A stretch of 64,000 nucleotides of DNA, from positions 17,918,001 through 17,982,000 of the forward strand of contig NC_058383.1 of assembly GCF_018350175.1 (NCBI RefSeq), written 5' to 3'. The DNA comes from Felis catus. Taxonomy: Eukaryota. The notes under the pieces were generated by a model. It saw nothing but the letters and a program-made list of their open reading frames with translations. It did no database searches and was not told where the DNA came from. Positions 30,901 to 52,700 of this stretch are shown one piece after another. Made by a program: the position numbers and the translations under genes. Positions within the stretch are counted from its first letter, which is position 1. The number at the start of each line of letters is the position of its first letter.

Positions 30901-31269
30901 GCCTCGCGGCTGTGACCCACAACCAAGGGTCCCGTCCTTGATTCCCTGTCCTCCCCCCCCCCCCACCCCGCCCTCTAGTAAGCTTTCCCGCCAGAGCGCT
31001 ACAGAGATCCCGCTGCCCATGCTGCCTCTGGCCGAGACCGAGAAGTTGATCCGCGAGAAAGATGAAGAGGTGAGCAAGTACCTCGCTTCCCACCCCCCCT
31101 CCCCGACCAAGAATCCAAGTCCTCTGCGAAGTCCCTTTCTGGCCTCGCCCGGTCCCACCGCCTGCAATCTTGCCCCGCGCAGCTGCGCCGCATGCAGGAG
31201 ATGCTGGAGAAGATGCAGGCCCAGATGCAGCAGAGCCAGACTCAGGGCGAGCAGTCGGACGCACTCTGA
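27999..31269 (+). CDS. SEPTIN1: Septin-1, 367 aa, 11 coding exons
   Basis: Exons 27999-28001, 28177-28267, 28367-28453, 28685-28808, 29114-29248, 29346-29463, 30021-30122, 30244-30343, 30566-30731, 30979-31069, 31183-31269; all GT-AG and phase-consistent (1104 nt). G1 GESGLGKS, G3 DTPG, G4 AKAD, septin-unique element RGRRYSWG, C-terminal coiled coil ending QSDAL*. Confidence 0.97.
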
Positions 31270-31824: not shown

Positions 31825-33894
31825 CTACTCCTGGTCCTTGGCGTCGCCATGCGTGATGACGTAGCAGATGTTCTTGTAGTCTACATTGCCTCCCACGTCG
31901 GGGGGGAACGCTGCCCACATGTTCCTGATCTGGGGAAAGATTCAGGGGCGTCTTCTACCGGTTGCGTACGCTCCCCTCACCCCTCCCTCTGCGTCTCCCG
32001 GGCCCCTCCCCAACTCACCTCTTCCGGGGAGAAGCGGTCGCACTGCGTGGTAAGCAGCTCCTCCAGGCTGGAGAGAGGTGACATATGGGGAGTTGAGACT
32101 GGGCTTCGTGGTTCCTTTCCACTCCCTCCCACCTCATCCTTTGTTGTCATTCCTGGTATCATCTTCAAAACCGAAGTCACTGTAGATCCCTCACTGGTCT
32201 CCCAGTCTGGCCTCCCTGCTTTTGCTCTTCCCCTCCCGAATGTGCTATCAAAATGTACTCCTATTGCCCATTTCCACAGTTCTAATTTTTCCCTTATTCC
32301 CTCCCTTATACCTAACCCTTGGTAAGAATTTAAGGAGGCTTTCTGTGTGTGAGCAGCTGGAGAGGGTCACTTACAACTGCTTCTTGATGGTGCCCTTCCC
32401 CTCATGATCCAGGACCTTGAAGGCTCCAGTGATCACGTCCTCAGGATCAGCACCTGCAGGGTCAGAGGGCATGTGAAGCGGAAGGGTCCCTGAACGGTCT
32501 GTCCTTGAAAGGTCTGGGGAGGAGTGGTTGGGGGCTTAGATCCAAGACACTTCATTCACCTTTAAGCTTCTCTCCAAACATGGTCAGGAAGACGGTGAAG
32601 TTGATGGGACCACTGGCTTCCTTCATCATGGCATCTAGCTCCTCATTCTTCACATTGAGGCGCCCTGGAGCAGGGTGGGGGGAGCTGGAGTGGGGTCCTG
32701 GGGCCAAGGGTTGATCCTTCCCATAATTTCAGATCATCCCACCCACTTTTTGCCTGGGCAGGCTGAGGCCCAAGGTGGGGCTAGCAGGGCTGAAACCCAA
32801 GGCTTCCATATTCCCAGTACTTCCTCAGTCTTGAGTCTTTATGGGTGGGATAAGGGGCTCACCCATGGCTGCGAAGGTGTCCCGCAGATCTTCCTTGTCG
32901 ATAATGCCATCACGGTTCTGGTCGATTACCGTGAAGGCCTGCGCAAGGTAGGGGCAGGGAGGGGTTAGGTCCCTTATGGCCGGGCTTCAGCATCCCTATC
33001 CCAGGCAGATCAGATTCTGGCCCCCAGCCAGCTGTCTTCTTACATGCCAAGCAGGGAGGGGAGCAAGGAATTCTAAACCCTTCCCCTCCCCCCCCCAAAC
33101 AGGTGCACATTCCAGGGAGGGGTATGAGGGGGGAGGAACAGCAGGGGGTGCCTTTGGTCAGCCTTCAGTCTCCCTTCTCCTCTCACCTCCTTGAACTCTT
33201 GGATCTGAGTCTGGTCGAACATGGAGAAGACATTGGAGCTTCCGCCCTCTGCTGCCGCCCTTCTCCTGGCCTTCTTGGGTGCCTGCGGGGTGAGGGATGG
33301 GCAAAGGGGTCTATGGGCCAATCCCTACTCCTCTCTGGAGGCAGTGGATTAGATTCAGGGTTCTTTGGGTCATTTTTCTAAAGCAACTGTTCTGGCTCTA
33401 GGCTTCCCCTCCCTTATGACCTCTGCTGAGGGGACTTGCTTAAATCTGTATCCCTAAATTCCTGTCCTTCATCCTACCCAACAAGTGGGACTTCTCAACA
33501 AGTCCCCTTCTCTGTGCCCTGAGCCTGTCTCCTCTGAGTCCCAGACTTGTTGTGTGACCTAATCTACTCATTCACCCTGTCTGAACCTCTACTTCCTCAT
33601 TTATAAAATGGGAGTTGGACTTCTTGCCTGGCTGGTCCCAGAGGGTTTGGGGAAGAGGGAGTGCAGAAAGGTGCAGAGGATGCTTTGAGAGGGACAGGTC
33701 TGTGAGTGGAGAGTCTGGGCAGATTATCCTTGGTTGGGTCCTTTAAGCCGTCATTCTGTACGATCCCCATTAGTAATGCCAAGAAAGGGAGGATTCATCT
33801 TTTTTTCTCTTACTGGACTGGGAATCGGCTATGTTCTTTTCAAAAGTGAAGCTGCCCTGAGGTCTGAGGGGTCTGGGGGATTCTCACTCACCAT
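31825..33894 (-). CDS. MYL11: Myosin regulatory light chain, fast skeletal (MYLPF), 170 aa, 7 coding exons
   Basis: Exons 33894-33892, 33282-33187, 32938-32863, 32664-32560, 32453-32375, 32067-32019, 31929-31825 (513 nt). [51 protein letters not shown]... (EF-hand), ending [10 protein letters not shown]. Confidence 0.97.
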
Positions 33895-33959
33895 GTCTTC
33901 GGTCTCCTGGGGGCAAGGCAGTGGCTCTGGCTGGAAAGGAGCAGAGTCAGCCTGGGGCA

Positions 33960-34100
33960 GTCCCTCTGGGGTTATATAGTCCTGCCCCAGGGAGCCCTCA
34001 ACATTCCAAGGTAACCTTAGCCCTTTCGGTGCCCACCCCAGATACCAAAATAGCCCAGCTGAGGGCCTCTCCTTTCTTGGAGGGCCAAGCAGCAGCTGGA
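33960..34100 (-). promoter_or_regulatory. Muscle-type promoter of MYL11
   Basis: TATA box (ctatataa on - strand, 33972-33979), MEF2/CArG-like ctattttgg (34045-34053), CAGCTG E-boxes at 34056 and 34093. Confidence 0.7.
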
Positions 34101-36789
34101 GCCCAGGGAGGGAGGAGGGAGTGGGTCTTGGGATGCATGTCTCACTGGGACCTGGGTAGAAAGGGATGTTCTCTTTCCCAAAAGCGGGCTGGAATGTGCC
34201 AGAGTTCAGAGAGGACCCAACCTGAGGGACAGTACTGGGGGAGAGATGAACCAGGCCCCTGTACCCCTGAGTGGGTGGGTCCAGATTTATTTATTTACTT
34301 TTGAAACATTCCTTATTTTGAAATTAATTTTTTATGGTTTTACTTATTTTTTTAAATATACATATTTTTTATTTTTAAGTAATCTCTACACCCGATGTTG
34401 GGCTCAAATTTAACCCAGAGATCAAGAGTCGCATGCTCTACCAACTGAGCCAGCCAGGCACCCCTCCAGATTTAAACCCAGTAAAATTATTGAGCACTTA
34501 CACTGTGCCAGGCACCGGGCTGTGCTTCATGGGTGCATTTTGGCAAGCACAATCCCTCAACTCCCATTGTGGAGTTCACAGTCAAGTGTATGTATGCCTG
34601 TGGGGTAGTGGCAGAGTTGAAAGGGAGACAGCTGTCTGGGAAAGCTGAAGAATAGGAAAGTCCTCTACCTCCCCTTCATGGTGGAGGGGAGGGTGTTTCA
34701 AGAAAAAAAAAACGCCAAGCATAGAATGACCAGGGACTAGAGACTAGACAGAAAGCCTGCTCTGTGAGTTTGGGCTTCGTGCTTCAACTCCCTGGGTCTT
34801 GTTTCCACCCTCTATAAAATGGGTATTAATTCCCATCCCACAGAACTTGTGGATATGAACACCATTTGGGAACAGTTTAGTGAAATATAATCATTACAAT
34901 GAATAGTTAGGCCCTGTCTTGGTGGACTTAGAGTCTAGCTGTGGAGACAGGATAAATGCAGAGAATGATTCACAGCGTTTGGTCAGGAGTACAGAAGTAG
35001 AGAGCATAGCAGCTGTGTCTGGGAGTATGGGGATGACTTTATGAAGGCCAGGAGAAGTGGGTCAGGTGGAAGTGGAGGGGCAGGTGTGCTAAGCAGAGAG
35101 CACAGACGGGCACAGGCCTGGAGAAGTGAAAGATCACGTTGCCAGAATGGTAATGGGGCTTGAGCAGAGGGTGCAAGGGGCTGGAGACCAGAGACTGGAG
35201 GGGCTTCAATGCCAGGCTGAGGGTTGAGAACTTGGGAGCCTTGGAAAGGTTTGAAACAGGAGAACATAATGGAATGTGAGTCTGTAATCGTTTCTTTGGG
35301 TCCTATTATGAAAGTTGGAACCGAGCGGAGGGGAGTCAAAGACCCCAAGAGGACTGCTACTTGGTCACCTCCGCCTGGGGGGCTGGGATGGCCAGTGGCC
35401 CCTTTCTCCATTCTGGGCAAGAACAAGTTTGGCTGACTGTATGACTTTGAGGTGCCCTCTCCTGGGGAAATAGCGGCTGAGGAAACCCCAGGAGGCCACG
35501 ATGGGCAAGGACACCCATCTCCTCCTTCATCTGCTTCCTTTAGGACCCAGTGTCCTGAGGAAGATGCCTCCTCCGTCTCCCTCCTCCAGCCTCATGCCAA
35601 TGCCTCTAAGACATTTTCTTTTCTGGGCACTGGGGCCCAGCCACCTGTTGTCTCTAAGAAGAGAGAAGGAGCCACCCTAAACTTAGCAGCTGCCCTCGGC
35701 CTCCTGCACTGGCCCCTCCCTACTTCAGTGGACAGCTGTCTCACCTTATAAGGTTACCATGGGGGTCTAGGCCCAGGGAGGAGCCTTATTCCTGGATTCT
35801 GGGAGGGGAGGAAAACTCCAAAGAGGGGAAAAGGGAAAGTGCTCAGGTAGCTTGGGCCAAATGAAAAGTGGGGAAGTTGAGGAGGAGATCAGGAGCTGTA
35901 TATCTAATTCAGACACTGAATGAGAATACACAGGATCTGGGTCTGAGCTGGGAGTGAGTAGCCTAAGAGAACTCAGAAACCAAGGAGGACCTGGGCATTG
36001 GGAGCTAGGTCTGACTGAAATTTCAGGATGGTGGACTCTGTATGGAAATTTGGGCCCTCTAACCCTGAGGCTCAGAGGGATGTGGGTCAGAGAAAGGAGA
36101 GGCTTGTAAAGTCAGGGCTTTGTGTTTGTGGTCTAGGGTAGCAAGGGCGGGGGGGGGTACTCAGGAGATTGGGGTCTGGTTTCTTAGAAAATGAGGAGTA
36201 TAGAGAGGTGTGGCAGTGAGGGGAGAGGAGTTGATGGGATAGGTCCTGGATACCCAAAAGAATAAGAATACAGATATGGGAGTTCCTGTTACTGGGAATT
36301 CATAGTTTGGGTCTAGGATGCCTACTAGAATGCTGGGGGGCGGCACTCAGAGGATGAGGAATTAGAGCCTGGATTCTGGGGAGGAGCTCAGATAGCTGGG
36401 GAGCTAGGAGAAGGACTTAAGGGCTTGGGAGGATCTAGAGAAATGGGTCGCTTAGAGGATTTGGAGGCTCTGGTTATAGTCGCCTGGGCTTTGGAGTATT
36501 GAAGTTGGTTGTGAGACCGAGATGAGAACTAGAGACGGAGTGGAGGTTGAGAGGACTTGATCAAGGCATTGGATCTGTGGTAGGGTCTCACAGACCACGA
36601 CAGTGAGGTGGCTCTGAAGCTGGATGGAGAAGGGGAGCCTAGGAGGCGCTTGACTGGCTCAGTTGGTAGAGCATGCGACTCTTGATCTCGGGGTCGTGAC
36701 TTGAAGCCGCACGTTGGGTGTGGAGCCTACTTAAAAAAGAGAGAGACAGACAGAATGGGAGCCCAGAAAGGACTCAAACAAAGCAGCGC

Positions 36790-37894
36790 CATGCTCTTAT
36801 TGGCTAAGGGCTGCAGTAATGTCCCTGGCCCCCGCCCCCTCACAGTGCTATCCCCAACTGTCACCCCCCTTCTGCGCTTGTCTCCGGTTGTCACCGATAT
36901 CCCTGGGCTGGCACCGCCTGCTGGCAGCACCCCTACACTTTGGATGCTTCCATTGGCTGAGACAGCCGTCTCTCTTCCTCCCAATTGCTTAAGCGAGGGA
37001 ATGCGTTTATTGGCTGACAATGCAAATTAATTGCAAATTTGGCCTGCCCCCCCCCCCCCCCCAGCTGTCATTCTTTCGTGACCTTCTTGGGAGACTTTAA
37101 GAATTCCTCAGCCCTTCCTATTGACTGCGGATGCCGTCTGTCACTGCCTAAATAGACGCCACTGTCTGTCAACTTGCCCTCCACCTACTCGCCCTTTTCA
37201 TTGGCTCCCTTTTTAGTATTCCTATTGGCCAAGCTAGCCTCTTCTCGCACAGCACCCGCCTCCTTCCGCGGTCATTCACTCTTTAGCCATTTTTATTGGC
37301 CAGGGCGTTCAGCCTCGCGCTTTTCTATTAGTTACTTCTTTCGTCCCACCTCCTCCTGCCTTCACCCCCCTTCTCATTGGTCTTCCAGCCCTTCTTCTTC
37401 TCCATTTCCTCTTCCCAAATTACCCAGCCCCTTCCCACCTCCAGCCCCACCCACCCTTCCAACGATTGGCAGAAACCCAGTTCCCCCTCTCCTATTATTC
37501 GCCCAAACACTCTGACGAGGAGGGAGAAAAAAGGAGCGCGACGGCACTGTCCGCGCGCAGGCGTGAAACGCCGAAATGCTGGCCGCTTAGCCGGCACTGA
37601 GGCGTGTGCGCAGGCGCGAGGTCGGCCGCTCGCCCGGAGCAGGAGGGAGGGGGCGGCGGCGAGAGAGCGCCAGGGGTGAGAGGGCGCGAGCGAGACCCCG
37701 GCGCCTGGCGCCCCAGGACCCTTGCCACGCCTCCGCGCGCCCGGCGGCGGCCCGCGCGCCGCCCTCATCTGCGACGCGCGCCGGGCCGCGCCCTTCGCCT
37801 TCTCCTCTTCCTTGGCGGGCGGCGCGGAGCGGCCTGAGGGGCGGCGCCTTCTGCGTCCGCCCCGGCGGGGTGATGTGAGGGGTGGCCCGCGGCC
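36790..37894 (+). promoter_or_regulatory. TBC1D10B promoter: CCAAT-box array followed by a CpG island
   Basis: ATTGG at 36799, 36952, 37009, 37200, 37224, 37295, 37376 and 37465; octamer ATGCAAAT at 37020; CpG island from ~37530. Confidence 0.7.
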
Positions 37895-40800
37895 ATGGAG
37901 ACGGGCCCGGCGCCCCTGGTGGCCCCGCCGCGCCGTCATGGCGCCCCCGCGGCCCCCTCGCCGCCGCCCCGCGGGTCCCGGGCCGGGCCTGTCGTGGTGG
38001 TGGCTCCGGGGCCGCCAGTGACCACGGCCACTTCGGCCCCCGTCACCCTGGTGGCCCCCGGGGAGGCGAAGCCCGCCTGGGTCCCGGGGCCCACCCAGAC
38101 CTCGGCCCCGGCCTCGACCGTCACAGGCAGCACAGTGGTGGTGCTGACTCTGGAGGCCTCATCCGAAGCCCCGAGGGCGCAAGTCTCCGCTGACCCAGAC
38201 CCCCTGGTGCCCGCGGCAGTGGCAGGAGCCGAGATGTCCATGGCTTTGGGCCCGGGGACAGATTCTCCGAAGACGGAGGAGGCTAGAACCTCACCCGCCC
38301 CTGGACCAGGTACCCCCACCAGGACCCCTTCCAGAACAGTTCCTGGGGTTCTGACCGCCAAACCCCCTCTTGCCCCCAAGCCGGGAACCACAGCTGCCTC
38401 AGGAGTGACCGCGCGGGTTGCAGCAGTGACAGCAGGACAGGTGGCAAGTGGACATGAAGCTGCAGCAGCAACATCAGCATCAACTGCACAGGCTCCAGAG
38501 GACCCCTCAGGGTCTGGCACAGGCCCTTCAGGAACTTGTGAGGCTCTGGTAACTGTCGTGACGGTCACCCCAGCTCCGGAGCCTGCTGAAAACTCTCAGG
38601 ACCTAGGCTCCACGTCCAGCCTGGGACCTGGCATCTCTGGGCCTCGAGGGCAGGCCCCGGACACTCTGAGCTACTTGGACTCTGTAAGCCTCATGTCTGG
38701 GACCTTGGAGTCCTTGGCAGATGATGTGAGCTCCATGGGCTCAGACTCGGAGATAAATGGGCTGGCCCTTCGCAAGACGGACAAGTATGGCTTCCTTGGG
38801 GGCAGCCAGTATTCGGGCAGTCTGTGAGTACCCAGTGGGCACCCCGTGGGGCTTCAGGGAAGCAGAGGTTGGGGAGGAGGAAATGATACACCTTGCCCAG
38901 ATCCTGGCAGCTCAGCCTCCTCCAGGACTTCAGGGGAGTGGCTCCAGCAGGAGTGAGCTACTTGGTGATCCCTGTCATGCCTAGAGCATCCTGAGGTTTT
39001 GGTGGCACTTGCATGTTAGAGTTTCAGGCCAGGTGTCAGGAGTTCTGGGTTTGAGCTTTGCTTTTAGTGTGTTGTGTGCCCTTGAGCTAGTGTTTTCCCT
39101 ATTTCTGTGTCTCAGTTTCCATCTCTATATAGTGAAAGGTTGAATGAGGTAATACTTAAGGTCGTCCCAGCTCCTTGATGTGAAAAACTCCAGCTGTGGG
39201 TCAGATATTCTGGAGGGCTGGCTGGGCAGGGATTCTGGTAGAGATATTTGGTCCCTGAAAGGGAAGGAGTCTGGGAGGGATGCAGTCATCTTCCCTCCCC
39301 CATAGCCCTAGGTCTGATGGGATGATGAGCTGGGGGAGGCCTGGTCGGTAGAGGGGACACCGTGAGGGTAAGGCTCCTCTGCGAAACAGAGAAGGGCAAT
39401 CTTGTGTTTTTACTGAAGGAAGGGGATGGGGGAGGCCTCTTCCCCATTTCCTCATCTCCCCAGCCGGGCTTACTCTTTCCTAGTTCCCTCCAGGGGCCTG
39501 AGTCACTCCTGATGTGGGGGTGTGATTGCCTCTGACTTCTTCCTTCCCTCTCTCTGGGAAGGATCCTGCCCATTGTTCATGTACCGCTTTAACCTGCTGG
39601 TCAGTTCAACCTACAGCATCACCTGAGCACCCAGGTGCCAGGCCCTGTGCTAGGTACTAGGGATAAAATAGTTGTTTCAAGGCACTCATTGTCAAAAGGG
39701 AGAAACAAATACTTAAACAATTGATGTCAATGTGTTTTAGGTTTAGCCTAGAGATCTTTACAGGATTTTGTGAGTACTAGGGAAGGGACCTTTTGCCCAC
39801 TCAGAATTCAACTGAGTCTGTTCCAAATCCTGAAGAATGAGTAGGATTTAGTCTAATCGTGTTATGTGTGTTGGGGTGGGGGGCACCTGCCTGGAGTTGG
39901 GGAAAACACTGTGGGAAGGTATTCTAGGTGTTTTATAATCCAACAAAAAACAGAAAACCTTTGATTGAGCACCAACATTCATGGTCCTAGGAAGGCAACT
40001 GAAGTTTGACCTTGGTGTTTTCCCATGCTGGAAGGATGCACTGTTGTACCCAATGTATAGGTGAAGAAACAGGATTAGAGCAGTTGAGTGAATTGCCCCA
40101 CTCACACCTGGATCTGTGTGACCAGTGGCTTTCTCCTCAATACTCTGCTGCCCTAAGGAACTTGGATTGAATTGGATTTCAGTGAGCCCCTCTTGTGTGC
40201 CAGGCACGTTGCTCGATTATGTTTCTCTGCTTTGTAATTTTGTCCCTCTAAAATCTATCTTCCATGCTGGAAGAACATACTTCTGAGGCCAGGCTGACTG
40301 GGGCACATGTTACCTTAAAAACTTATGGTAGCTCTCCCCTGGCCACAGGATAAAGTCCCATGTGCTTTATTCTGCAGATGGACTCCTTATTTTCTGCCTT
40401 TGCCAGTCTTTCTGGTCTTCTCTCCCACCACTTCTCACCATGCACTTAATACTGTGGTCCTGTTGAACTGATTGTAGTCTCTTCCCCTTCATACTCAGGC
40501 TGTTCCACCTGCCAGGAATGCCTTTCTCCTCCTTCTTGTCTTGGTATGTTCTACTCAGTCCCTCCTGGCTTATAATGAAGATGTCTCCTCCTCTAGGAAG
40601 CCTTTCCTGATATCCACTGCCCCTACTCCAGTCAGTGCCTCTCCTGTGCATTTTTGTTATTTCATTTCCCACACCACATTGCAGTTATCTCCCCTGCAAG
40701 CTTGTGACCTTCTTGAGGGCAGGAAAGATATTACCTAATTCTTCCTGATCCTTAGTAGGGTTTGGAACCAACTTATGATAGAAATTAATGAGCAATGATG

Positions 40801-43717
40801 GGCGCCTGGGTAGCTCAGTTGGTTAAACGTCTGACTTTGGCTCAGGTCATGATCTTGAGGTTCGTGAGTTTGAGCCCTGTGTCAGGCTCTCTGCTGACAG
40901 CTTGGAGCCTGGAGCCTGCTTCAGATTCTGTGTCTCCCTCTCTCTCTGCCCTTTTCCTGCTCACGCTCTGTCTCTCTCTCTCAAAAATACATAATAAATA
41001 TTTTTAAAATATTAATGAGCAATGATTAAGTGGTTCTAAGACAAAAGAAACTAATAGTTAATGAGCCCATCCATTTGCCAGTCCTTTATATACAGTTTCT
41101 CAGTAGTTCTCTCATACCTTTGTGATGTAGATGGTGGCATCCCTTTTTGACAGATGAGGAAGAGATTCAGGTTATCACTTGCCAAGATTTCCCAATTTCT
41201 AATGGACAGAACTGGGATTTGAGCTCAGGTTGGTCTGGAAATTCAAGCGCTTTCTTCCATTCCACTCATTTCCTGGTACTGGCTCCTACACGTAACTGTT
41301 TCAAGACTCCTGGGGTATCTTGAGTGTGAAGCTGTGACAGAACAATGGGCAAACAGTGCAAGGAAAGCTTCATTTGCTTGAGAATCTCGGGTGACTTCAG
41401 GAAGGAGGTAGAGGGAATTGCAGGTGGCCCAGGGGATCTCAAGGGTCTGATAGGAGGAAACTCAGTTGCTTCTAAGGAGGCAGAGAAGTATATTTATATT
41501 TGTTCTGTATTCTGTTTTATGGATAACAATTGCTCTTACTGAGCACTTGCTATTATATAACCTCTCAGGTAGATCCTATTTTTTTCTCCACCTTACAAAT
41601 GAGGAAATTGAGGCTTAGAGGAATTCTATGACTTGCCCAAGGTCACACAATGAGTAAGTGGTAAAGCTAGAACTTGGACCCAGGTCTAATGCAAACTGTG
41701 GCTTTTAAATATTCTGTACCCTCTCCCCAAACTTGTATGTGCCATCAGCAGGATTTGAACACACCCAACATGTACAGAGATCCAACATGAGAACACCATC
41801 TCTGTACAGAGATTCCTTCCAAGGGAAGAAGTCCTTTCAGTGTGGTGAACTAGGCCCTTCGATGGCTAAGTGGCCAGATATCCTGATATTTGGTAGCTCA
41901 CAAAATGCTTTTACATCCAGTCTCTCATTTGAGCCTGGGGAGGTGGGTGGCTTGCTTCAGTTCTGCCAGCAATCCATGTTTTATACCACTGCTGTTGACC
42001 CTTTCCATGCTTTCTTCATCCCGCAGAGAGAGCTCCATTCCTGTAGATGTGGCTCGGCAGCGGGAACTCAAATGGCTGGAGATGTTCAGTAACTGGGATA
42101 AGTGGCTGTCACGGCGTTTCCAGAAGGTTTGGGAGGCTGACTGGTGGGCAGGGCAATGGACAAGTTTGGAAGGGGTTAGGGAGAGCTCATATACTCCAGG
42201 GAAGCCATGATAGTATTTGTTCTCTAGACCACATTGGGGATGGGTGGTTCTTGGGCCTGGGGGGAGGAGTAGTTTTAAAGATAGAAGGCCAGGCCAGGTC
42301 CAGTGGAGTCAAGCCAATGAGATGTGGGAGGGCTGTCCCAGGAAGCCTGAGGACTGCTGGGGAAAGCCTGGAGGCTATGCCAGCCCCTGAAGCTGTCACC
42401 CTGCCTGCCACTCTGCCTTAGGTGAAGCTGCGCTGCCGGAAGGGGATCCCCTCCTCCCTCAGAGCCAAGGCCTGGCAGTACCTGTCCAATAGCAAGGAAC
42501 TCCTGGAGCAGAACCCTGGCAAGTTTGAGGTGTGTCCAGGGTATGGGGACATGTGATACTGTGTGAAGGGTATCATCAGTCCCCCTAGATCCTGAGATAA
42601 TCCCTGATGTCCCACTGCAGGAGCTGGAACGGGCTCCTGGGGACCCCAAGTGGCTGGATGTGATTGAGAAGGACCTGCACCGCCAATTCCCTTTCCATGA
42701 GATGTTTGCCGCTCGAGGAGGGCATGGGTAAGATGGCCTGATCACGTGGGTCAGTCTGTAGAAGGCTCCAGGTGGATACAGGGCTGGGTTGAAAGCTGTT
42801 CTTGCCCTCCAGGGCTTCTAGGAAGGTGGTCCTTAATGTATTGAGTGTCAAGCCATATTGAGGGAACTGTCCTGGGAAGGAGATTCTGACTCAGGGCTGG
42901 GGGGTTGTTGGAGGGGAGATGGAGAGGCACAACAAGGACTTATTGAAGAGGTTGCATTTGAGTTGGGTTTTGAAGGTTAGATGGGAGCAGAGCCAGGGGC
43001 AGGTTTTTCCTGGCTGGGGGTTTATATAAGCTGTCTCTGGGATGTGGGGTTGAGTGGAGCTGAGGCTGGAAAAGCAGTTTCGGGTCAGATCACCAGAGGG
43101 CCTTAAAAATTGTTCCGAGGCACTTGTACTTTTGTTCTCTATGCTAGACTTCCCCAAGATGTATATATATCACTCCTTAGTAATATGCAAGATGGTATTA
43201 GGTGACTCTCAGATGCACATTTTTCATCAGTTGGTTCATCTTTTCAGCAAATATTTAACTGAACACCTGCTATCTGCCAGGAACTGGTCTAGTCACAGAT
43301 GATAGCAGTTAACAAGACAAAAATTCCTGCCCTTATGGGGCTTATTACATTTTAGTGAGGATAGAAAATAAGTAAATAAGACAAAGAAGGAAAGTATGTT
43401 GTATGTGAAAGGGTGGTAAGTATTAAAGAGGAGTTTAAAGCAAGAAAGGGGAATAGAGAATGTGAATGGAGATGTGGTTATAATGATCTGACTTGTGTTT
43501 TAAAAGGATCATTCTGGCTGCTGTGCTGAGAATAGTATAAGGAGACAAGGACGGAAGCAGAGAGACTTGTTAGAAGACTATTTCCATAATCCAGGAGAGA
43601 GAGTATGATAGATATATCAGAATGGTAGCCATGGAACTATGGGGAAAAGTGGTTGGGTTCTGTCTATATTTTGAAAGTAGAGCCAAAAGGATTTGCCAAT
43701 AGATTAGATGTGGACTG

Positions 43718-43751
<34 letters not shown>

Positions 43752-46700
43752 GAATTAAGGCCGACTCTGAAGGTTTTGGGCCTGAGAAACTAGACAAATG
43801 GAGTTGTTCATATATTGGTGTGGATGAGAAAAGGAGGTTAGAGGGGTATGTTAAGAGCTCAGTTTAGGAATGTGAAGTTTGAAATGCTAATTGGACATCC
43901 ATCTGGAGATGTCAAGAAAGTTGGATGTATGACCTGTATAAGTCTGGAATTTGGGGAGAAGTTTAAACTGGAGGTAAGCTGGAGATTGAGAGTTATTGGC
44001 CTCTAGATGGGACTAAATTTCACCTGTGGGATTGGACGAGCTCATCAAGGCAGCAAGTGTAGATACAAAAGGAAACTCAGAGATTGAGCCCTGCAGCTCT
44101 AACATTTCAAGAATGGGAAGATAAGAACGAACCAGCACAGGAAGGAGAAACTAGAGAGGTAGAAGGAGAACCAGGGCAGTGTGATCTCTGGAAGCAAATC
44201 GAAGAGGGGTTTTGGGACCAGTTGTATGGAATGCTGCTGATGGGTCAAGTAAAGTCAAGTCTGCAAATTGACCTCTGGATTCAGCACAGTAGAGGTCATT
44301 AGTGACCTTGATAAAGGCAGTTTGCACAGGGCAGTAGTGTAGAGCCTGACTGGAGAATGGGAGGAAAGAGATTAAAGACAGCAAGTCTGTATTCTGAAGT
44401 TTTGCTGACTAGGTAGAGAGAGAAATGATGTAATGTTTGGAGGGGAAGGGGGGTAGTCAAGAGACTTTTTTTGTAACATAGAGGAAATAACAGATACTGG
44501 TATGCCACTGGGAATGATCTAGTAGGGAGAGAAAAACTGATGATGCAGGAGAGGTGGGAGGCTTGCTGGAGTGATGGACTGTGTAGGTGAGAGGGGATGG
44601 GACGCAGTACCCAAGTGGAAAAGCTGTGTTTGGCCAGGACCACAGACAGTTCACCCACAGCAACAGGGAGAAAGCAGGGACACAGATGCAGGTAGGTGGG
44701 TAAAAATAGCATGGGAGCTTGTGGGAGTTACATGTTTAATAGGTATTAGGTAAAATAACTAGTACATCAAACCTGTCATTTCATGGATGCTATTGCTAAG
44801 TGGAGAAAAAATATTAAGTAAATAGTACTGGGGAGGTATGCAGGTAAAACACAAGATCACACTTCAATGACTGAATTTGGGGATGTAAGAGGTTATTACT
44901 TTTTACTTTTTTCTGGGTAAGAAATGAAAGTCTGAGCTACGGAATGGCTGTGGAGGTAGAGAGAAGGAACAGGCATGAATGAAACTCAACATGTAGTGTT
45001 AAGACTTGATTAGCCACGGGGAGTGATGTAGGGCTCTCTTTTCCAACGTGAGGCTAAGTGAATGGAATTCTCAGACACAACGATGGGCACCCTCAAGAGG
45101 ACAGGTCTAGAGCAGAGATTTTATTCTTTGGGATACAGAGACACGAGAAAGGTCTGAGGCACAGCTGGCTTCTCAAGCCTTCACCAAGAACCAGGTCCCA
45201 ATGGACATGCTGGCAGAGAACTGATGAAATCCACTGAGGCAGTTAGGGCAGGCCCTGCTCTGGGGTGATCAAAGAATTCAGACAGTGCTACGGGAGATCT
45301 GATGCTGTGGACAGTGGAAGCTTTCTGAAGAAGGTGACCTTGAAGGTCTATGGGGTGGTGGCAGATGAAGGATGGAGAGAGAGCACATCCTGTGCTGGGG
45401 AACGGGTAGGGAGCACATAGGATGTGGAGGCAAGGGTGGGAAGCTGGAGCCTGGAATGCTTTGATGATGGTCTCGGTCATTGGCTTAACCTTGATAGCAG
45501 TGCTAGGAAGGTCGGTGGAGGTGCGTGGTGGTGAACCTCTGAGGTTAATCTGGAACTGGATCTAGGAGGGGTCTGGGCTGGGGCTGGTTGTGGGGGGCAG
45601 GCTTAGTTTGGGGCAGAGAGCCCCCAACTCCTGTGATTGCCCTCATGGTCTTTCCCAATACCCACAGGCAACAGGACCTGTATCGAATCCTGAAGGCTTA
45701 CACTATCTACCGGCCCGATGAGGGCTACTGCCAGGCCCAGGCCCCAGTGGCCGCCGTGCTGCTCATGCACATGCCTGCTGAGGTCAGCATACGCTGGTCC
45801 TGGTTGGGGAGGGACTGGGAGGACCTTGGCCTACAGTGGTGATGGGGGAGCTCTCTGCTCCCTGTTTCTCAGGCCCCTCCCTCCTTCCTTGTTCTCGCTC
45901 TTCTCAGCAAGCTTTTTGGTGCCTGGTGCAGATCTGTGACAAGTACCTCCCCGGTTACTACAGTGCAGGGCTGGTGAGTGTCTGGGGGCTGGGTGCACCC
46001 AAGGTTGTGACTTTCTCCTGAGGCTGCAGGGAGGTCCTTGTCCTGCCTCCTCCCTCTCCCCCCCCCCCCCCCTTGGTCCTTTTGTCCCTCTGCTCTGGGC
46101 CTCTCCCACTGAGGTGAGGATCCCCCACTAGGGACAGTCCTACCCCACGGGAGCCACAGTAGGCCTCTTCTCATGGTTCATCCCACTTCCAGGAGGCCAT
46201 TCAGCTGGACGGAGAAATCTTTTTTGCGCTGTTGCGCCGGGCCTCCCCGCTGGCACACCGACACCTGCGGCGGCAACGCATTGACCCCGTGCTCTACATG
46301 ACAGAATGGTTCATGTGCATCTTTGCCCGCACCCTGCCCTGGGCTTCAGTGCTGCGTGTCTGGGATATGTTCTTCTGTGAAGGTACTTCTGTAGCCGTTC
46401 AGGCCATGAGGGGGCCGGGGTTTCCATGGTGGCTGCCAGAGAGTGGCCTGCTGCCCGAAGTTGCCTCTGGGACCTAGGCTTCCCTGTAAGCAGTCTGGGG
46501 GCTGGAGAAACTGGGGCCTAGTCTTGGCTCTGCTATCAGTCCAGAACCTACTGTTCCTCTCAGGAACTCGAAACCCATGGCAGCTCATTTCCCTTCGTGG
46601 GACCTCAGTTTCCTCATCTGTACGGTTGGCACTAGACAGGGATGGGGCCTGTTGAGTCTCTTCTGACTGGGACACACTGAGGTCCCAGCCCTGATCACCC

Positions 46701-47613
46701 GCGCTCTCTTCTTTCTGACCTTGCAGGCGTCAAGATCATCTTCCGCGTGGCCCTGGTGCTGCTGCGTCACACGTTGGGCTCAGTGGAGAAGCTGCGCTCC
46801 TGCCAAGGCATGTATGAGACCATGGAGCAGCTGCGCAACCTGCCCCAGCAGTGCATGCAGGAGGACTTCCTGGTGCACGAGGTAGGCCGTGGCCTTAGCA
46901 CACCCACACCTGCTTCAGCCCATCCCCATCCTCACCTTCACTCCGGTACCCGTTTCTTCTCCGTCTAGGTGACCAACCTCCCAGTGACAGAAGCACTGAT
47001 TGAGCGAGAGAACACAGCCCAGCTCAAGAAGTGGCGAGAAACCCGGGGGGAGCTGCAGTATCGGCCCTCTCGGCGACTACATGGCTCCCGGGCCATCCAT
47101 GAGGAGCGTCGGCGGCAGCAGCCACCCCTGGGCCCCTCCTCCAGCCTTCTTAGCCTCCCTGGCCTCAAGAGCCGAGGCTCCCGGGCAGCTGGAGGGGCCC
47201 CCTCCCCACCCCCTCCTGTCCGCAGGGCCAGTGCTGGGCCTGCCCCAGGACCTGTGGTCACCGCTGAGGGACTGCATCCATCCCTTCCTTCGCCTACCGG
47301 CAACAGCACCCCACTGGGTCCCACCAAGGAGACTCGGAGGCAGGAGAAGGAGCGGCAGAAACAGGAAAAGGAACGTGAGAAGGAGCGGCAGAAACAGGAG
47401 AAAGAACGGGAGAAGCAGGAGAAGGAGCGGCAGAAATGGGAAAAAGAGCAGGAGAAGGAGCAACAGAAGCAGGAGAAGGAACGGCAGAAGCAGGAAAAGA
47501 AGGCCCAAGGCAGGAAGCTCTCACTGCGTCGAAAGGCAGATGGACCCCCAGGCCCCCAGGATGGTGGGGACAGGTCCTCCGCATCTGAGGCCCGGCAGGA
47601 TGCTTACTTCTGA
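37895..47613 (+). CDS. TBC1D10B: TBC1 domain family member 10B (Rab-GAP, EPI64B), 804 aa, 9 coding exons
   Basis: Exons 37895-38823, 42027-42126, 42422-42529, 42621-42727, 45668-45782, 45908-45973, 46193-46382, 46727-46881, 46969-47613 (2415 nt). Pro/Thr-rich N-terminus [15 protein letters not shown] Arg finger IEKDLHR, Gln finger YCQ, charged C-terminal repeat, C-terminal DAYF. Confidence 0.97.
43225..44710 (-). mobile_element. Long L2 fragment in TBC1D10B intron 4, containing (GA)n at 43721-43748
   Basis: cagcaaatatttaactgaacacctgctatctgccagg..., aggatcattctggctgctgtg..., ggtcattagtgaccttgata. Confidence 0.7.
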
Positions 47614-48660
47614 CCTCTGTCCCCGGGGCTGGACTGCATGGCCTCCCTTGTTTTCCCCTCAGTCAGGAGCAGGCCTGGCCTGGGGTGCTGCCCCGAGCTT
47701 CCTGGGCAGACTGTCCTTCTGGGGAAAGTGGTTTGATTTCCCATCTCCTTGCCAGCTGCTGATCCCTACACAGCTGGGACAGTGACAGTGCATGGGGCAG
47801 CTGCCTTTCCTCGGGGCAGGTGTGAACAAGTCTGGAGCCCCTTCACCTCCAGTTAGGTCCTGCTGGGGTCTCTGGCACTCCTGCCCCGATTTCCTTTGGG
47901 GTTCTTTCCCAGGTGCAGTCCTGATTGGCCTTTTGTCACCTCAGGGGTGACTTGGCAATGGGAATCAGCAGTTTTCAGATTCTTACACTCCAGTTGCTCC
48001 CCTTATCCATGAGTGGAGCTGGGTTCCTCTTTCCCTTCTTCAGCCCTGCTGGTCTCCCCCACTTCCTGGCTGGGGGCCACGGCTCTCCTTGCTCTACTTC
48101 TGGACATCTCTGTTGTAATTATGTACAGAGCAGCTGGTCGGCCCAGGGTGGGGGTGCTTGCTCTGTCTTCTATCCTTTGGTTCTCCTTCCATAATGTTCT
48201 TGCACTCGTTTATTTAAGGGGACATGCACTGGCACAGGAAATGTCCCCCCTTTCCCCACCTACCATTCTCCTTGTTCTCTTTCACCCACCCTCCTCTGTG
48301 TTCTCAGGCCTCTCCTGCTTTGTCTTACCAGGGCCCCCGCCTTCCACCTTGTTTCCCCTCCAGCCCCTATCTGGGTAAGGGGTCTTCCCCTGAGCTCCAG
48401 GGGGTGGAACCCAATGTTTACATTCTCTTGTCTGCTCCCACCCTGTGCGGCGCTTCGAGGAATCAGAAAAGAACCTGCTGTTGTACCTGGGCCTGTCTCC
48501 TGCCTTGTTATTTGATAAAGGGAGTTAGAATAAGAACTAGGTGGGGTGGGGGTGGGGAGGAAACAATGGAGCAGGCCAGGATCTGGGTGTCTGCTGAAGC
48601 ACTCAGCTGGTCTTGGCAGGGAGGGACCTTTTGGCCTTTGGTCCATCTTTCAGTCACTCA

Positions 48661-49281
48661 TCAACAACTGTTGAGCTCCTGCTCCCCCTTTGCCTGGGAT
48701 CTGCTGCCTCTGTTGTCACTGGACTGGAGTCCTCTACGCACCACCTGCAGCACCCGGATCTCTTTCCCAAAGTGCTCGTGCAACTCCTGGAAGCTGGAGG
48801 GGGGACTGAGGGTGGCTAGGAAGCCACAGTCCTCTGGGGGTGAGCTGGGTTGTTGGCCAGCTGCCTGGCACAGCTCCCGGTACTGGGCCTCCAGTGGGGG
48901 TAGTAGCGCCACCAGCCGCCTCCAGCTCACCCCAGCCAGTGCCCACAGCCACGCTGCCAGCTCTCCCTGGTTTTCTGCTGCCAGCTTGTAGGTCCGCCCA
49001 CCTTCTGTGCCCTCAACCCCGGGGGTCAAGATGGTAAAGGCATAGGGTTCTGTGGCCCCGAGGCGTGGCTCCACCTGGCAGTTTTCTAAGAGGATGAGGC
49101 CCAGGGGTGTGCGGTCTGCCTGGTGCTCCAGGTAGAAGAGGAGGTTTCCCCGGAGGACAAACCAGCGGCGTTGATAGCTGATATTTCGGGCTCCCTTCTT
49201 TAGCAAGATGCCCTCCCGGTCTGGAGCCTGTGTTCTGTATCCGTGGAAGAAACTGAGCACGGACTTTCGGTGCAGTTTCAT
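48661..49281 (-). CDS. Sesquipedalian/PHETA (IPIP27/FAM109)-like PH-domain endocytic adaptor, 206 aa, single coding exon
   Basis: Family-type start MKLHRKSV; PH domain GILLKKG...YQRRWFVLRGNLLFY...PLGLILLENCQVE...YAF...RTYKLAAENQGELAAWLWAL; C-terminal F&H motif SFQELHEHFGKEIRVL. Kozak context accATG. Polypyrimidine/AG acceptor at 49307-49306, 24 nt upstream of the ATG. Confidence 0.88.
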   Translation of the reverse strand: MKLHRKSVLSFFHGYRTQAPDREGILLKKGARNISYQRRWFVLRGNLLFYLEHQADRTPLGLILLENCQVEPRLGATEPYAFTILTPGVEGTEGGRTYKLAAENQGELAAWLWALAGVSWRRLVALLPPLEAQYRELCQAAGQQPSSPPEDCGFLATLSPPSSFQELHEHFGKEIRVLQVVRRGLQSSDNRGSRSQAKGEQELNSC

Positions 49282-50199
49282 GGTAGTTCAATCTGGGAGT
49301 TAACCCTGGGGGCAGGAGAGAGGAGGGGTGGTCTCCTTATTATCATGGGTACCCCATGCTGCCCTCCTGGGGCTCCAGTAGGTTCTTCCTGGGCATAGCC
49401 TTAGTCTAGTGGGATTCAGGACTGTCCTAAAGACCTAGAGGTCTTGTCCCCACAGCACAGGGACCCATACCCACCCCCCCCATCCCCCCCCCCCCCCCCC
49501 CCTTTAGCTCTCCCCCTTGGGCCAGCTTACAGATTCTGGGCTGGGGCCGCTGGGGCCCTACTTGCCAGCAGTGGGGCTTTATCCTGAGGCTGTGGTCTGA
49601 GAGAGAGGCATTGTTGCCTCTTTCCAGGCCTACCTGAGATCGGGGCACAAGAGGCTTCTAGCCTGGATTCTGGACACAGGAACCACTGTCACCTGTACGG
49701 TGATGGCTCTTCCCACCTCTGAAACCAGGAACTCGACCAGGGGACAGGCGTGGGGTAAATGACTTCCCCTGGGTCCTAAAGAGAGCTGGGTTCGGAAAGT
49801 GCCCCCAAAGCCAGCTGGGGGCTCCAGGCGGGCCATCGTGGGAACTCGGTCTCTCCTCAGGGAGAAGAGCAAGGCCGCACCTCGGACTAGGAGAGGACAG
49901 AACTGGACACTGACTGGGAAAGCAGGATTCCTATGGAGACGGTGAGGGGCACAAAGCCCTTGGCCAACCCTGGGGAAAGGTGACTCAACTCTGTAAAGGG
50001 AACCGGGCCGAAACCCACTGTCCCACTTCGCCCCTCCCTGATGCTGGGCGCCCCTTTAAGTAGTGTGCTTCACTTTCTCCTCAGAGTCTCCAACTGCTGT
50101 AGGAGGGAATCTAAACCGCATCCGGCCATCCCTATCGTCTGATCAGGGTCTAGGCGTTCATTTGTGGCCTGTTCTCGCTGTTGTCGCCCCCAAACTGCT

Positions 50200-50950
50200 C
50201 ACGTCACCCTGGGGAGGGCGGGGTTGTCTTCTCCGCTCTCGGCGTACTTCCGCCCGCTTTTCCAGCTAGTCATCTAATCGGAGTGAAGCCACTTCCGGCC
50301 TTCTCTGGAGCCTTCCGCAGTTCTCTTCCGGGTGATGGCGCCCGGCGCCCCGGATGTAGCCCTGGTGAAAGTCTCTCTTTTTCTTCCCCCACGGCCTCCC
50401 GTGGATCCTGAGGTGAGCGCGAGCCGGTGGGGCTGCTCGAATCCCCGCGGCTCTGCCGCCTCTCTTTGTACACTTAGGCTTGTACACTTAGCCCAGGACA
50501 GTTGGGGGTCACCCCGCGGAGCTGGGAGTTCAGCGCGGGGCGGAGGGGGTGGCCAGGACGCCAGGTCCTGGGTCCGTCCAGGCCCCGCGGGCTCTGAGGG
50601 AGCTGGGGGTGGAGGAGAGGGTGTCAGCCCGCGGATCCCCGTCGCACCCAGGACTGCGGGGGCTAGGGATGGGGGGGGGGGTACGTGGGGGAGCCTGCCT
50701 TTTTTCGTCAAGGGTGGGGGTTGCCCGTGGGGAGCCCCTCTGCGCCACCGCCCCTCCGCCCCCGCTCCAGCAACTCTTTTGGATGCCGAACCAAGTCCGG
50801 GGGGCCTCCTGGCGGCCAGCTTCCCTTTCGGCCCCTCATTCTGTGCTCCCTCTCCTCCCGAGCTGGATCTAGTGCGTACCGGGTGATTATTTGTTGTGCT
50901 GGGGCTCTTCCGCGGTGAGTAGCCTCGCCCACTTCCCTTAATCTGCATCC
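50200..50950. promoter_or_regulatory. CpG-island promoter of CD2BP2, probably bidirectional
   Basis: Tandem ETS cores cttccg at ~50247, 50292, 50312 and 50325; YY1-like gatggcg 50334; CD2BP2 exon-1 donor GAG|GTGAG at 50412/50413; PHETA-like gene lies divergently. Confidence 0.75.
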
Positions 50951-50991: not shown

Positions 50992-52700
50992 ATGCCAAAG
51001 AGGAAAGTGACCTTCCAAGGTGTGGGAGAGGAGGATGATGAGGATGAAATCAGTGTTCCCAAGAAGAAGGTGAGGGGGCCAGACTCCTGCATTCTTAGGA
51101 GGAGTGAGGGGAGAGAAAGAACTAGAAGCCAGAAGAGAAAGAAGGGGGCAGGGGGCAAAGAAAGCAGAGAGGGGGCTAGCTTTTCCATGTTCTCTGGGAA
51201 GTGGGTTTGGAGAATTTCCAGTTGGGGAAGGTTTTGAAGAAAACTCTACCTGGAGTATTTTGAGGAATAGCCAGTAACCTGCGTCTCTCAACTTGCTGGC
51301 CCTTCCTCACAGCCAGTGGATCCTGTGGCTGGGGCAGGGGGTCCTGGGAGCCGCTTCAAAGGCAAACACTCTTTAGACAGTGATGAGGAGGATGATGATG
51401 AAGAGGAGGGGTCCAGCAAATATGATATCTTGGCTTCGGAGGATGTGGAAGGTGAGCTAAACCCAAGAATTGGTTCTGCTGGAGGAACAGATAGAGCTTT
51501 TGGGGATGGGGGGGTGGCAAGGGCGCGCACGTGCGTGTGTGTGGGTGTGTGTGCGCACGCGCGCGTGCACCCAGCACGGGATGCCTGTGTCTTTCATGCA
51601 GGTCAGGAAGCAGCCACGCTCCCCAGTGAGGGAGGTGTGCGGATCACACCCTTCAACCTGCAGGAGGAGATGGAGGAAGGCCACTTTGATGCTGATGGCA
51701 ACTACTTCCTGAACCGGGATGCTCAGATCCGAGACAGCTGGCTAGACAACATTGACTGGGTGTGGCCCAGGGGCTGACGTGGTGGGGGCCTGGAGGCAGC
51801 CAGTGCTGGGCTTGGGCCCTGCTCACGGTTTGTAGGAGATAACCACCCCCACCCCTGTTTTCACATCACAGGTGAAAATCAGGGAGCGGCCACCTGATCA
51901 GCGCCCACCGTCCGACTCAGAGGAAGAGGACAGCCTGGGCCAGACACCAATGAGTGCCCAAGCCCTTCTGGAGGGCCTTCTGGAGCTGCTGTTGCCAAGA
52001 GAGACCGTAGCTGGCGCACTGAGGCGTCTGGGGGCCAGAGGAGGAGGCAAAGGGGGCAGCAAAGGGGGTGGGCGGCCCAGTTCCCCCCAGCGCTTGGATC
52101 GGCTCTCTGGGTTGGCCGACCAGATGGTGGCCCGGGGCAACCTTGGCGTGTATCAGGAGACAAGGGAACGATTAGCCATGCGGCTGAAGGGGTTGGGGTC
52201 CCGGACCCAGGGACCCCCTGAGACCACACCCCCTCCCTCTCTGGACATGTTTGCTGAAGAAGTGGCAGAGGGGGAGCTGGAGACCCCAACTCCTACGCAG
52301 AAGGGAGGTAAGACTGGAGGGCAGAGGAGTGCTGGGGGCAGGGGCAGGGGCCAGGGAACTTGAGGCCCAGATGGCCTTGTCTGTTGTTTTAGAAGCAGAG
52401 TTGCCAGGAGATGGTCTGGTGGACGTGATGTGGGAATATAAGTGGGAGAACACAGGGGATGCTGAGCTGTATGGGCCCTTCACCAGCACCCAGATGCAGG
52501 TAAGCCCCTTTCTACTTCTTTCTGCCACTTCTCTCCTCCCCCACCGCCCATACCAGTCCTTTCCCAGCTCTTGCTCTCTTTTCCTGCAGACCTGGGTGAA
52601 CGAAGGCTACTTCGCAGATGGTGTTTATTGCCGGAAGCTGGACCCTCCTGGTGGACAGTTCTACAACTCCAAACGCATTGACTTTGACCTCTATACCTGA
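50992..52700 (+). CDS. CD2BP2: CD2 cytoplasmic tail-binding protein 2 (U5-52K, GYF domain), 342 aa, 6 coding exons
   Basis: Exons 50992-51069, 51313-51451, 51602-51759, 51872-52307, 52393-52499, 52590-52700 (1029 nt). [12 protein letters not shown]..., GYF domain WEYKW...GPF...WVNEGYF..., ending IDFDLYT*. Confidence 0.97.

What the first reader, a model, noticed from the sequence alone, without database searches (positions are those of the whole stretch)
31825..49281. Paralogon evidence that the PHETA-like gene is an ancient ohnolog rather than a retrocopy
Known: human PHETA1 lies at 12q24 near MYL2, SH2B3, ATXN2 and ATP2A2, whose paralogues MYL11, SH2B1, ATXN2L and ATP2A1 lie at 16p11.2. Seen: the PHETA-like ORF is about 15 kb from MYL11, is strongly diverged from PHETA1/2 outside the motifs, and has no obvious poly-A tail or target-site duplication. 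Inference: it is the 16p11.2 member of a whole-genome-duplication paralogon.
Basis: partly seen in the sequence, partly recalled or inferred. Interest (0 to 1): 0.7.

Follow-up and report, generated by a model that had tools for sequence, protein, structure and literature searches.

The report
Third PHETA adaptor, broken in primates
This carnivore genome carries an intact third copy of the PHETA endosome-adaptor gene whose relatives sit beside the same neighbour gene from sharks to mammals; it likely arose in an early vertebrate genome doubling, is broken in the primate records examined, and is likely the true counterpart of the zebrafish gene called pheta2.

Summary
Observation confirmed: a 206-aa PH-domain ORF (49281-48661, minus strand) lies 14.8 kb from MYL11, between TBC1D10B and CD2BP2. 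It is a third vertebrate PHETA/IPIP27 paralogue ('PHETA3'), not a mammalian retrocopy. It groups with shark, bichir, gar, teleost, coelacanth, amphibian, reptile, monotreme and marsupial proteins (100/98), apart from PHETA1+PHETA2 (100/99); joining it to mammalian PHETA1 is rejected (p-AU 0.00025). Its orthologue shares a contig with CD2BP2 in 18 of 19 comparable non-mammals, with consecutive accessions in horn shark. In this genome MYL, SH2B, ATXN2 and SERCA paralogues flank both PHETA3 and PHETA1, so an ohnologue is likely (about 0.8); an equally old transposed copy is not excluded. The missing poly-A tail and target-site duplication carry no weight at this age. Additions: zebrafish 'pheta2' is probably PHETA3; non-placental PHETA3 keeps a C-terminal clathrin-box-like motif while PHETA1 keeps the PxxP motif; primate and baleen-whale records are frameshifted; the human lncRNA CD2BP2-DT probably overlies the relic. 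OCRL binding and expression in this species are untested. The scan noted the same gene before in a lizard genome.

The parts
48661..49281 (-). PHETA3 (third PHETA/sesquipedalian/IPIP27 paralogue) coding sequence, 206 aa, single coding exon
48937..49218 (-). PH domain (residues 22-115); basic beta1-beta2 residues K28, R38, R39 kept
   Evidence: Pfam; AlphaFold model mean pLDDT 81.7; Foldseek best hits are PH domains
48862..48924 (-). Helix after the PH domain (residues 120-140), the coiled-coil region of PHETA1/2; carries a mammal-specific proline
   Evidence: Pro at 127-129 in 26 of 27 mammalian PHETA3 rows, 0 of 66 other rows
48757..48795 (-). F&H motif SFQELHEHFGKEI (residues 163-175), predicted OCRL/INPP5B-binding helix
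   Evidence: motif definition from PMC3046058 and 10.1101/616664
49306..49633 (-). Predicted GT-AG intron in the 5' UTR, acceptor 24 nt before the ATG
   Evidence: sequence; spacing fits a marmot RefSeq model (93 vs 96 nt spliced, 424 unspliced) and an unnamed Logan record (87 vs 92, 420 unspliced); not shown by reads of this species
49634..49800 (-). Predicted upstream non-coding exon
   Evidence: tblastn of N-terminal extensions P0016 and P0021
48209..48214 (-). Only AATAAA on the minus strand within 1 kb of the stop; candidate poly-A signal, inside the likely TBC1D10B 3' UTR
   Evidence: use not tested
49900..50500 (.). CpG-rich stretch (o/e 0.67) between PHETA3 and CD2BP2; likely shared bidirectional promoter
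   Evidence: inference
50992..52700 (+). CD2BP2 coding region, head to head with PHETA3; the synteny anchor
37895..47613 (+). TBC1D10B coding region, tail to tail with PHETA3
   Evidence: name recalled from sequence and position
31825..33894 (-). MYL11 (MYLPF) coding exons
   Evidence: name recalled from sequence and position
28687..31269 (+). SEPTIN1 exons (3' part)
   Evidence: name recalled from sequence and position

Best explanation
The ORF is an intact third vertebrate PHETA gene (PHETA3) that split from the PHETA1/PHETA2 line before sharks and bony fish parted, likely in an early vertebrate whole-genome duplication, and that likely works as an endosomal adaptor recruiting the phosphatases OCRL/INPP5B through its F&H helix. 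Shown: the three-part anatomy (PH domain, helix, F&H motif), the deep tree position, the link to CD2BP2 across jawed vertebrates, and matching paralogue pairs round PHETA3 and PHETA1. Inferred: the single ancestral gene had both an SH3-binding PxxP motif and a C-terminal clathrin-box-like motif (as fly dIPIP does); PHETA1 kept the first and PHETA3 the second; placental PHETA3 then lost the box as well, leaving a minimal PH + F&H adaptor that decayed in primates and baleen whales.
For: Tree: IQ-TREE on 54 rows, PHETA3 26 rows one clade 100/98, PHETA1+2 100/99, vertebrates 100/98 against 8 outgroup rows; PH+helix columns only 99/91. AU rejects mammalian PHETA3 + mammalian PHETA1 (p 0.00025) and PHETA3 + PHETA2 (p 0.0125). 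Synteny: same contig as CD2BP2 in 18 of 19 comparable non-mammal species (5 of 6 lineages); horn shark XP_067883730-2 next to XP_067883733-6 on a 501-kb scaffold, bichir XP_039620967-8 vs 964, salamander NDU88_004559 vs 004557, snapping turtle KAG6922157 vs 158 on an 83-kb scaffold. Paralogon in G000: PHETA3 has MYL 15 kb, ATXN2-family 763 kb, SH2B 789 kb, SERCA-type 812 kb away; PHETA1 has SH2B 34 kb, ATXN2-family 112 kb, MYL 374 kb, SERCA-type 796 kb away. Constraint: among 21 placental rows mean identity is 0.88 in the PH core and 0.90 in F&H against 0.49 in the tail. Motifs: terminal box in 49 of 57 non-placental PHETA3, 0 of 27 placental, 0 of 21 PHETA1/2, 7 of 84 outgroup rows, chance 0.6%; PPxPPRR in 0 of 84 PHETA3 and 16 of 18 PHETA1. 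Fly dIPIP has both motifs (PMC6408333). Zebrafish pheta2 mutants act redundantly with pheta1 in kidney endocytosis (PMC7272357).
Against: The caecilian Rhinatrema has PHETA3 and CD2BP2 on different chromosomes. Positions in non-mammals are proxies (contig length, accession order), 13 of the 18 hits are turtles, and no teleost or frog could be compared. Only one lamprey and one hagfish row were named and their place is unresolved (63/25; p-AU 0.42 for lying outside). No PHETA match was found at the third segment with MYL and SH2B paralogues (C41 8.4-9.0 Mb). Teleost PHETA3 has coding introns that the mammalian gene lacks. Inside PHETA3 the tree departs from the species tree (sharks with tetrapods), though the species arrangement is not rejected (p 0.24); with one long outgroup row included, that row fell inside PHETA3. 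Mutating the fly box did not affect cytokinesis rescue. No binding or expression data exist here for the mammalian protein.
Confidence: 0.8

Rival explanations
1. PHETA1/2 and PHETA3 split by a single-gene event (retroposition or a small DNA duplication) in the vertebrate stem, and the paralogon position is incidental.
For: The age bracket alone does not prove WGD; cyclostome placement unresolved; only two of up to four expected segments hold a PHETA; intron content differs between teleost PHETA3 and the rest.
Against: A copy landing at random in today's genome would fall within 1 Mb of any paralogue of the four families about 0.5% of the time (rough, post hoc, and higher for an ancient small-chromosome genome). 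All three paralogues keep an AG acceptor 14-24 nt before the ATG. Complementary motif retention fits co-duplication and partition.
Confidence: 0.15
2. The tetrapod/shark gene and the ray-finned-fish/coelacanth gene are two different old copies (hidden paralogy, or an intronless copy replacing an intron-bearing parent).
For: Two subclades inside PHETA3 (98/83 and 97/95) cut across the species tree; coding introns were seen only in teleosts.
Against: Bichir (one subclade) and shark, salamander, reptiles and mammals (the other) all lie with CD2BP2; the species-tree arrangement is not rejected (p 0.24); shark and platypus rows have odd composition.
Confidence: 0.04
3. A mammalian retrocopy or processed pseudogene of PHETA1 or PHETA2.
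For: Single coding exon; broken in several mammal records.
Against: Orthologues from shark to marsupial; AU rejection; conserved position; domain-wise constraint.
Confidence: 0.01

Closest known systems
PHETA1 (sesquipedalian-1, IPIP27A, FAM109A)
   Same: PH domain, following helix, F&H motif, single coding exon with an acceptor just before the ATG; 44% identity.
   Different: Separate clade since before the shark/bony split; lacks PPPxPPRR (pacsin-2 site); lies by CD2BP2/TBC1D10B instead of SH2B3; non-placental members end in LIDL/LIDF; mammalian members have a proline in the helix.
PHETA2 (sesquipedalian-2, IPIP27B, FAM109B)
   Same: Same anatomy; the placental protein also lacks PPPxPPRR.
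   Different: PHETA2 belongs with PHETA1 (100/99); PHETA2 + PHETA3 as one clade is rejected (p 0.0125). PHETA2 lies beside a septin on another contig; its date is unresolved.
Zebrafish pheta2 (zgc:153733)
   Same: Probably the orthologue: divergent, no PPPxPPRR, no synteny with PHETA1/2, chromosome 3 (PMC7272357); its published oligos read SMIVRD and RYE-G|gt, the PHETA3 pattern and teleost intron, and predict the reported 44-bp fragment.
   Different: Multi-exon coding region; teleost PHETA3 proteins are longer (about 250-290 aa) and keep the terminal box. The zebrafish protein itself was not retrieved, and the reported 180-bp fragment does not fit the teleost spacing.
Drosophila dIPIP (CG12393)
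   Same: Single pre-duplication orthologue with F&H motif and a C-terminal putative clathrin box (PMC6408333, passages).
   Different: Also has the PxPPPRR motif, which PHETA3 lacks.
RefSeq 'sesquipedalian-1-like' LOC models
   Same: Automatic annotation already labels this gene in many vertebrates.
   Different: No paper found that treats it as a distinct third paralogue.

Membership tests
PHETA/Ses/IPIP27 adaptors | N-terminal PH domain of the PHETA type | tested here: met
   Pfam PH; best own-genome hits PHETA1 E 7.6e-23, PHETA2 1.4e-9; model
PHETA/Ses/IPIP27 adaptors | C-terminal F&H motif with F, H and the E-I pair | tested here: met
   FQELHEHFGKEI; pattern in 26 of 27 placental and 51 of 57 other PHETA3 rows; H168 invariant in 93 of 93 rows
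PHETA/Ses/IPIP27 adaptors | Coiled-coil helix after the PH domain | tested here: inconclusive
   Helix 120-140 predicted, but remodelled with a proline in 26 of 27 mammalian rows
PHETA/Ses/IPIP27 adaptors | Physical binding to OCRL/INPP5B and endosomal location | not testable with these tools
PHETA1 orthologue | PPPxPPRR motif and SH2B3 neighbour | tested here: not met
   0 of 84 PHETA3 rows carry the motif; the true PHETA1 is on C27, 34 kb from an SH2B gene
PHETA2 orthologue | Groups with PHETA2 in the gene tree | tested here: not met
   p-AU 0.0125; the true PHETA2 is on C16
Ohnologue (1R/2R) | Duplication after invertebrate outgroups and before the jawed-vertebrate crown | tested here: met
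   outgroup rows are unnamed, so amphioxus and tunicate are not individually confirmed
Ohnologue (1R/2R) | Both copies lie in paralogous segments | tested here: met
   four family pairs within 0.82 Mb of each gene
Ohnologue (1R/2R) | Position is ancestral, not a later move | tested here: met
   with CD2BP2 in 18 of 19 non-mammals; proxy data
Ohnologue (1R/2R) | Both segments map to one pre-duplication linkage group in an outgroup genome | not testable with these tools
   75 metagenome loci were short; none had a CD2BP2 or septin hit
Retrocopy | Nested in a parent clade, at a new site, with poly-A/TSD and loss of parental introns | tested here: not met
   the 5' UTR acceptor is kept

The most novel reading that the evidence does not exclude
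Vertebrates have three, not two, OCRL adaptors of this family. PHETA3 is the clathrin-box-bearing ohnologue and is the gene knocked out as 'pheta2' in zebrafish, where it gives the stronger craniofacial phenotype; most mammals still make it, primates do not, and the human relic lives on as the cancer-linked lncRNA CD2BP2-DT, whose YBX1-binding segment would be former PH-domain coding sequence. Loss of this third adaptor could be one reason OCRL defects differ between species.
Probability: 0.35. Interest if true: 0.75.

Novelty: new member of a known kind. Interest (0 to 1): 0.52.

Why it matters
Papers state that vertebrates have two IPIP27/PHETA genes (PMC3046058) and that zebrafish has orthologues of both (PMC12329224). 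If zebrafish pheta2 is PHETA3, its kidney and jaw phenotypes describe a gene that is broken in primates, and fish are no model for human PHETA2. A third F&H adaptor present in carnivores, ruminants, squirrels and marsupials is a testable modifier of OCRL (Lowe/Dent-2) biology across species, a clean case of motif partition after duplication, and a candidate protein-gene-to-lncRNA conversion in humans.

Tried and rejected
Expression: one search listed 14 runs marked or guessed as RNA holding 0.80-0.89 of the words of 47900-50400; no reads were laid, and such a share needs intronic sequence too, so it is not used as evidence. Homodimer prediction (residues 1-145, two copies) gave no verdict, score 0.01, alignment not used; it is no evidence either way. 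The ESM Atlas gave no answer. No PHETA-family structure appeared among 59 PDB sequence matches. The 'sperm-associated antigen 8' name on a turtle protein (P0048) suggested another locus; rejected because other turtles place the gene with CD2BP2. Apparent introns in turtle and sturgeon gene models were not accepted; only the teleost introns are seen in DNA (L011). Dating PHETA2: neither an amniote-stem origin (p 0.14) nor an older one (p 0.44) is rejected. One long outgroup row (P0331) was dropped; the Crotalus row was mis-cut to 14% fill. Paper searches for zebrafish neighbours of pheta2 found nothing usable. Oltrabella 2021 (IPIP27A in zebrafish) was not held, and the supplement of PMC12005790 with the CD2BP2-DT sequences could not be read; both may bear on the claims.
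Full report
Observation. The window reads, in order, a zinc-finger gene, SEPTIN1 (+), MYL11 (-, 33894-31825), TBC1D10B (+, 37895-47613), a 206-aa ORF (-, 49281-48661) and CD2BP2 (+, coding 50992-52700) (gene names other than CD2BP2 are recalled from sequence and order). The ORF has a Pfam PH domain at residues 22-115. The genome's other matches are PHETA1 on C27 and PHETA2 on C16, then two weak PH hits. It is 44% identical to PHETA1 and 34% to PHETA2. The nearest named proteins are hyaena (92%) and lion (88%), so the host is likely a cat-like carnivore. No poly-A remnant or convincing flanking repeat is present.

Distribution. A search with the ORF gave 95 proteins, among them 'sesquipedalian-1-like' records from carnivores, moles, shrew, rodents, armadillo, hippo, musk deer, tree shrew, marsupials, platypus, echidna, turtles, frogs, sturgeons, gar, teleosts and sharks. 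A profile search of 50%-identity representatives added coelacanth, bichir, salamander, caecilian and anole members and one lamprey and one hagfish protein. Mouse, rat and human were not among the named hits; that search needs shared 5-residue words, so absence is not shown.

Tree. FastTree on 157 rows and IQ-TREE on 54 chosen rows give two jawed-vertebrate clades: PHETA3 (26 rows, 100/98, holding the window gene with marsupials and monotremes at 100/100) and PHETA1+PHETA2 (18 rows, 100/99). Using only the PH domain and helix gives 99/91. With one long outgroup row left in, it fell inside PHETA3, so it was removed. Holding mammalian PHETA3 with mammalian PHETA1 is rejected (p-AU 0.00025), as is PHETA3 with PHETA2 (0.0125). 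Lamprey and hagfish pair up but their place is open. No shark PHETA1 was in the set, but sharks inside PHETA3 already put the split before the shark/bony divergence. The internal order of PHETA3 is not the species order; the species order is not rejected (p 0.24).

Position outside mammals. A search with one CD2BP2 exon (145 hits, 120 listed) and cluster look-ups let contig lengths and accessions be compared. PHETA3 and CD2BP2 share a contig in 18 of 19 comparable non-mammals: horn shark (501,112-bp scaffold, consecutive accessions), bichir, Pleurodeles (locus tags two apart), two anoles and 13 turtles (Chelydra consecutive on 82,704 bp; Gopherus evgoodei on 597,620 bp). Rhinatrema is the miss. 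Malaclemys and Lepidochelys olivacea were left out because the lengths shown belong to another species. That accessions follow genome order is common practice, recalled, not shown. Echidna, shrew and bonobo also share a contig. TBC1D10B and MYL11 were not checked outside this genome.

Paralogon. In G000, myosin regulatory light chain, Phe_ZIP (SH2B), LsmAD (ataxin-2) and SERCA-type ATPase hits lie 15, 789, 763 and 812 kb from PHETA3 and 374, 34, 112 and 796 kb from PHETA1. The closest TBC1D10 paralogue is on the PHETA1 contig, 13 Mb away. A third segment (C41 8.4-9.0 Mb) has MYL and SH2B copies but no PHETA hit. In zebrafish atxn2l and sh2b1 are on chromosome 3 and atxn2 on 5 (PMC12730607, passages), as are pheta2 and pheta1 respectively (PMC7272357, sections 7 and 23). 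Old age, ancestral site and paralogous surroundings together make WGD the likely origin; a random landing would hit such surroundings about 0.5% of the time (rough and post hoc).

Introns. All three paralogues have an AG acceptor 14-24 nt before the ATG. For PHETA3 a GT-AG intron 49633-49306 fits a marmot model and an unnamed Logan record; colobine and whale models use the same acceptor. Full-length intronless ORFs occur on several invertebrate genomic contigs of 7-34 kb, other invertebrate loci break at differing residues, and a teleost-like contig (L011) has introns at residues 27/28 and about 129. An intronless coding region is thus widespread and is not a retrocopy sign.

Zebrafish pheta2. 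The paper reports it as divergent, lacking PPPxPPRR and synteny with human PHETA1/2. Its gRNA target reads SMIVRD and its reverse primer RYE-G followed by a GT donor, the residue pattern and intron of teleost PHETA3, and this predicts the reported 44-bp fragment exactly. The 180-bp fragment does not fit, and the protein was not retrieved, so the orthology is likely, not proved. No teleost row fell with PHETA2.

How it likely works. The model shows a PH fold, a helix at 120-140 and the F&H motif in a helix (pLDDT 81.7; PH matches). F, H and the E-I pair needed for OCRL binding (PMC3046058, passages; 10.1101/616664, passages) are present. Among 21 intact placental rows the PH core (0.88) and F&H (0.90) are far more conserved than the tail (0.49). 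Non-placental PHETA3 ends in LIDL/LIDF-type words in 49 of 57 rows, turtles in LIDLE, the sequence of OCRL's own clathrin site (PMC3313792, passages); placental PHETA3 (0 of 27) and PHETA1/2 (0 of 21) do not, and PPxPPRR is confined to PHETA1/2 (broken and fragmentary rows were left out of these counts). Fly dIPIP has both motifs, though its box was dispensable in a cytokinesis rescue (PMC6408333, passages). I infer partition of motifs after duplication, and that the carnivore protein is a minimal adaptor bringing OCRL/INPP5B to endosomal membranes to remove PI(4,5)P2. Binding, location and expression in this species are untested.

Losses. Records from bonobo, lemur, four colobines and two baleen whales follow shifted frames of this ORF, while tree shrew and hippo are intact; a pipistrelle record lacks the start. 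These are gene models, not checked DNA. Human CD2BP2-DT is a 1215-nt divergent lncRNA (PMC12005790, passages, where 'pseudogene' does not occur). In the window the gap between CD2BP2 exon 1 and the likely TBC1D10B 3' end is about 1.75 kb and the ORF fills its distal 0.6 kb, so a 1.19-kb divergent transcript would overlap the relic if human spacing is similar; this is geometry, not alignment.

Novelty. Ten paper searches found no description of a third paralogue; 'sesquipedalian-1-like' gave 0 papers. The library lacks most subscription journals. Automatic annotation already marks the gene, and this scan noted it in a lizard (e1-10286716). Verdict: a real, new member of a known family; first reading supported; interest 0.52.

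Noticed in passing
window 48661-50300: The human lncRNA CD2BP2-DT (1215 nt, reported to bind YBX1 in breast cancer) likely overlies the PHETA3 relic, by geometry only.
   Followed up: partly
L003 (G000:C16:135144485): PHETA2 groups with PHETA1 and lies beside a septin outside the PHETA1/PHETA3 paralogon; it, rather than PHETA3, may be the relocated copy. Its age is unresolved.
   Followed up: partly
window 48209-48214 and 47613-48560: The only nearby minus-strand AATAAA lies in the likely TBC1D10B 3' UTR, so the two transcripts may overlap tail to tail.
   Followed up: no
window 48862-48924: All but one of 27 mammalian PHETA3 rows gained a proline in the helix that forms the coiled coil of PHETA1/2; none of 66 other rows has it.
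   Followed up: partly
G000:C27:27.99 and 28.01 Mb: Two near-identical septin copies about 19 kb apart with equal scores; a tandem duplicate or an assembly duplication.
   Followed up: no
P0539, P0540 (turtle records): A turtle gene model fuses septin-1 to CD2BP2, suggesting SEPT1 abuts CD2BP2 there, a different local order from mammals.
   Followed up: no
P0226 (Rhinatrema): NCBI names this caecilian protein sesquipedalian-2 and it sits weakly with PHETA2 (55/72), hinting that PHETA2 may be as old as tetrapods.
   Followed up: no
L002:1303-1950: PHETA1 coding sequence has GC3 of 0.98 against 0.71 for PHETA3 and 0.76 for PHETA2.
   Followed up: no
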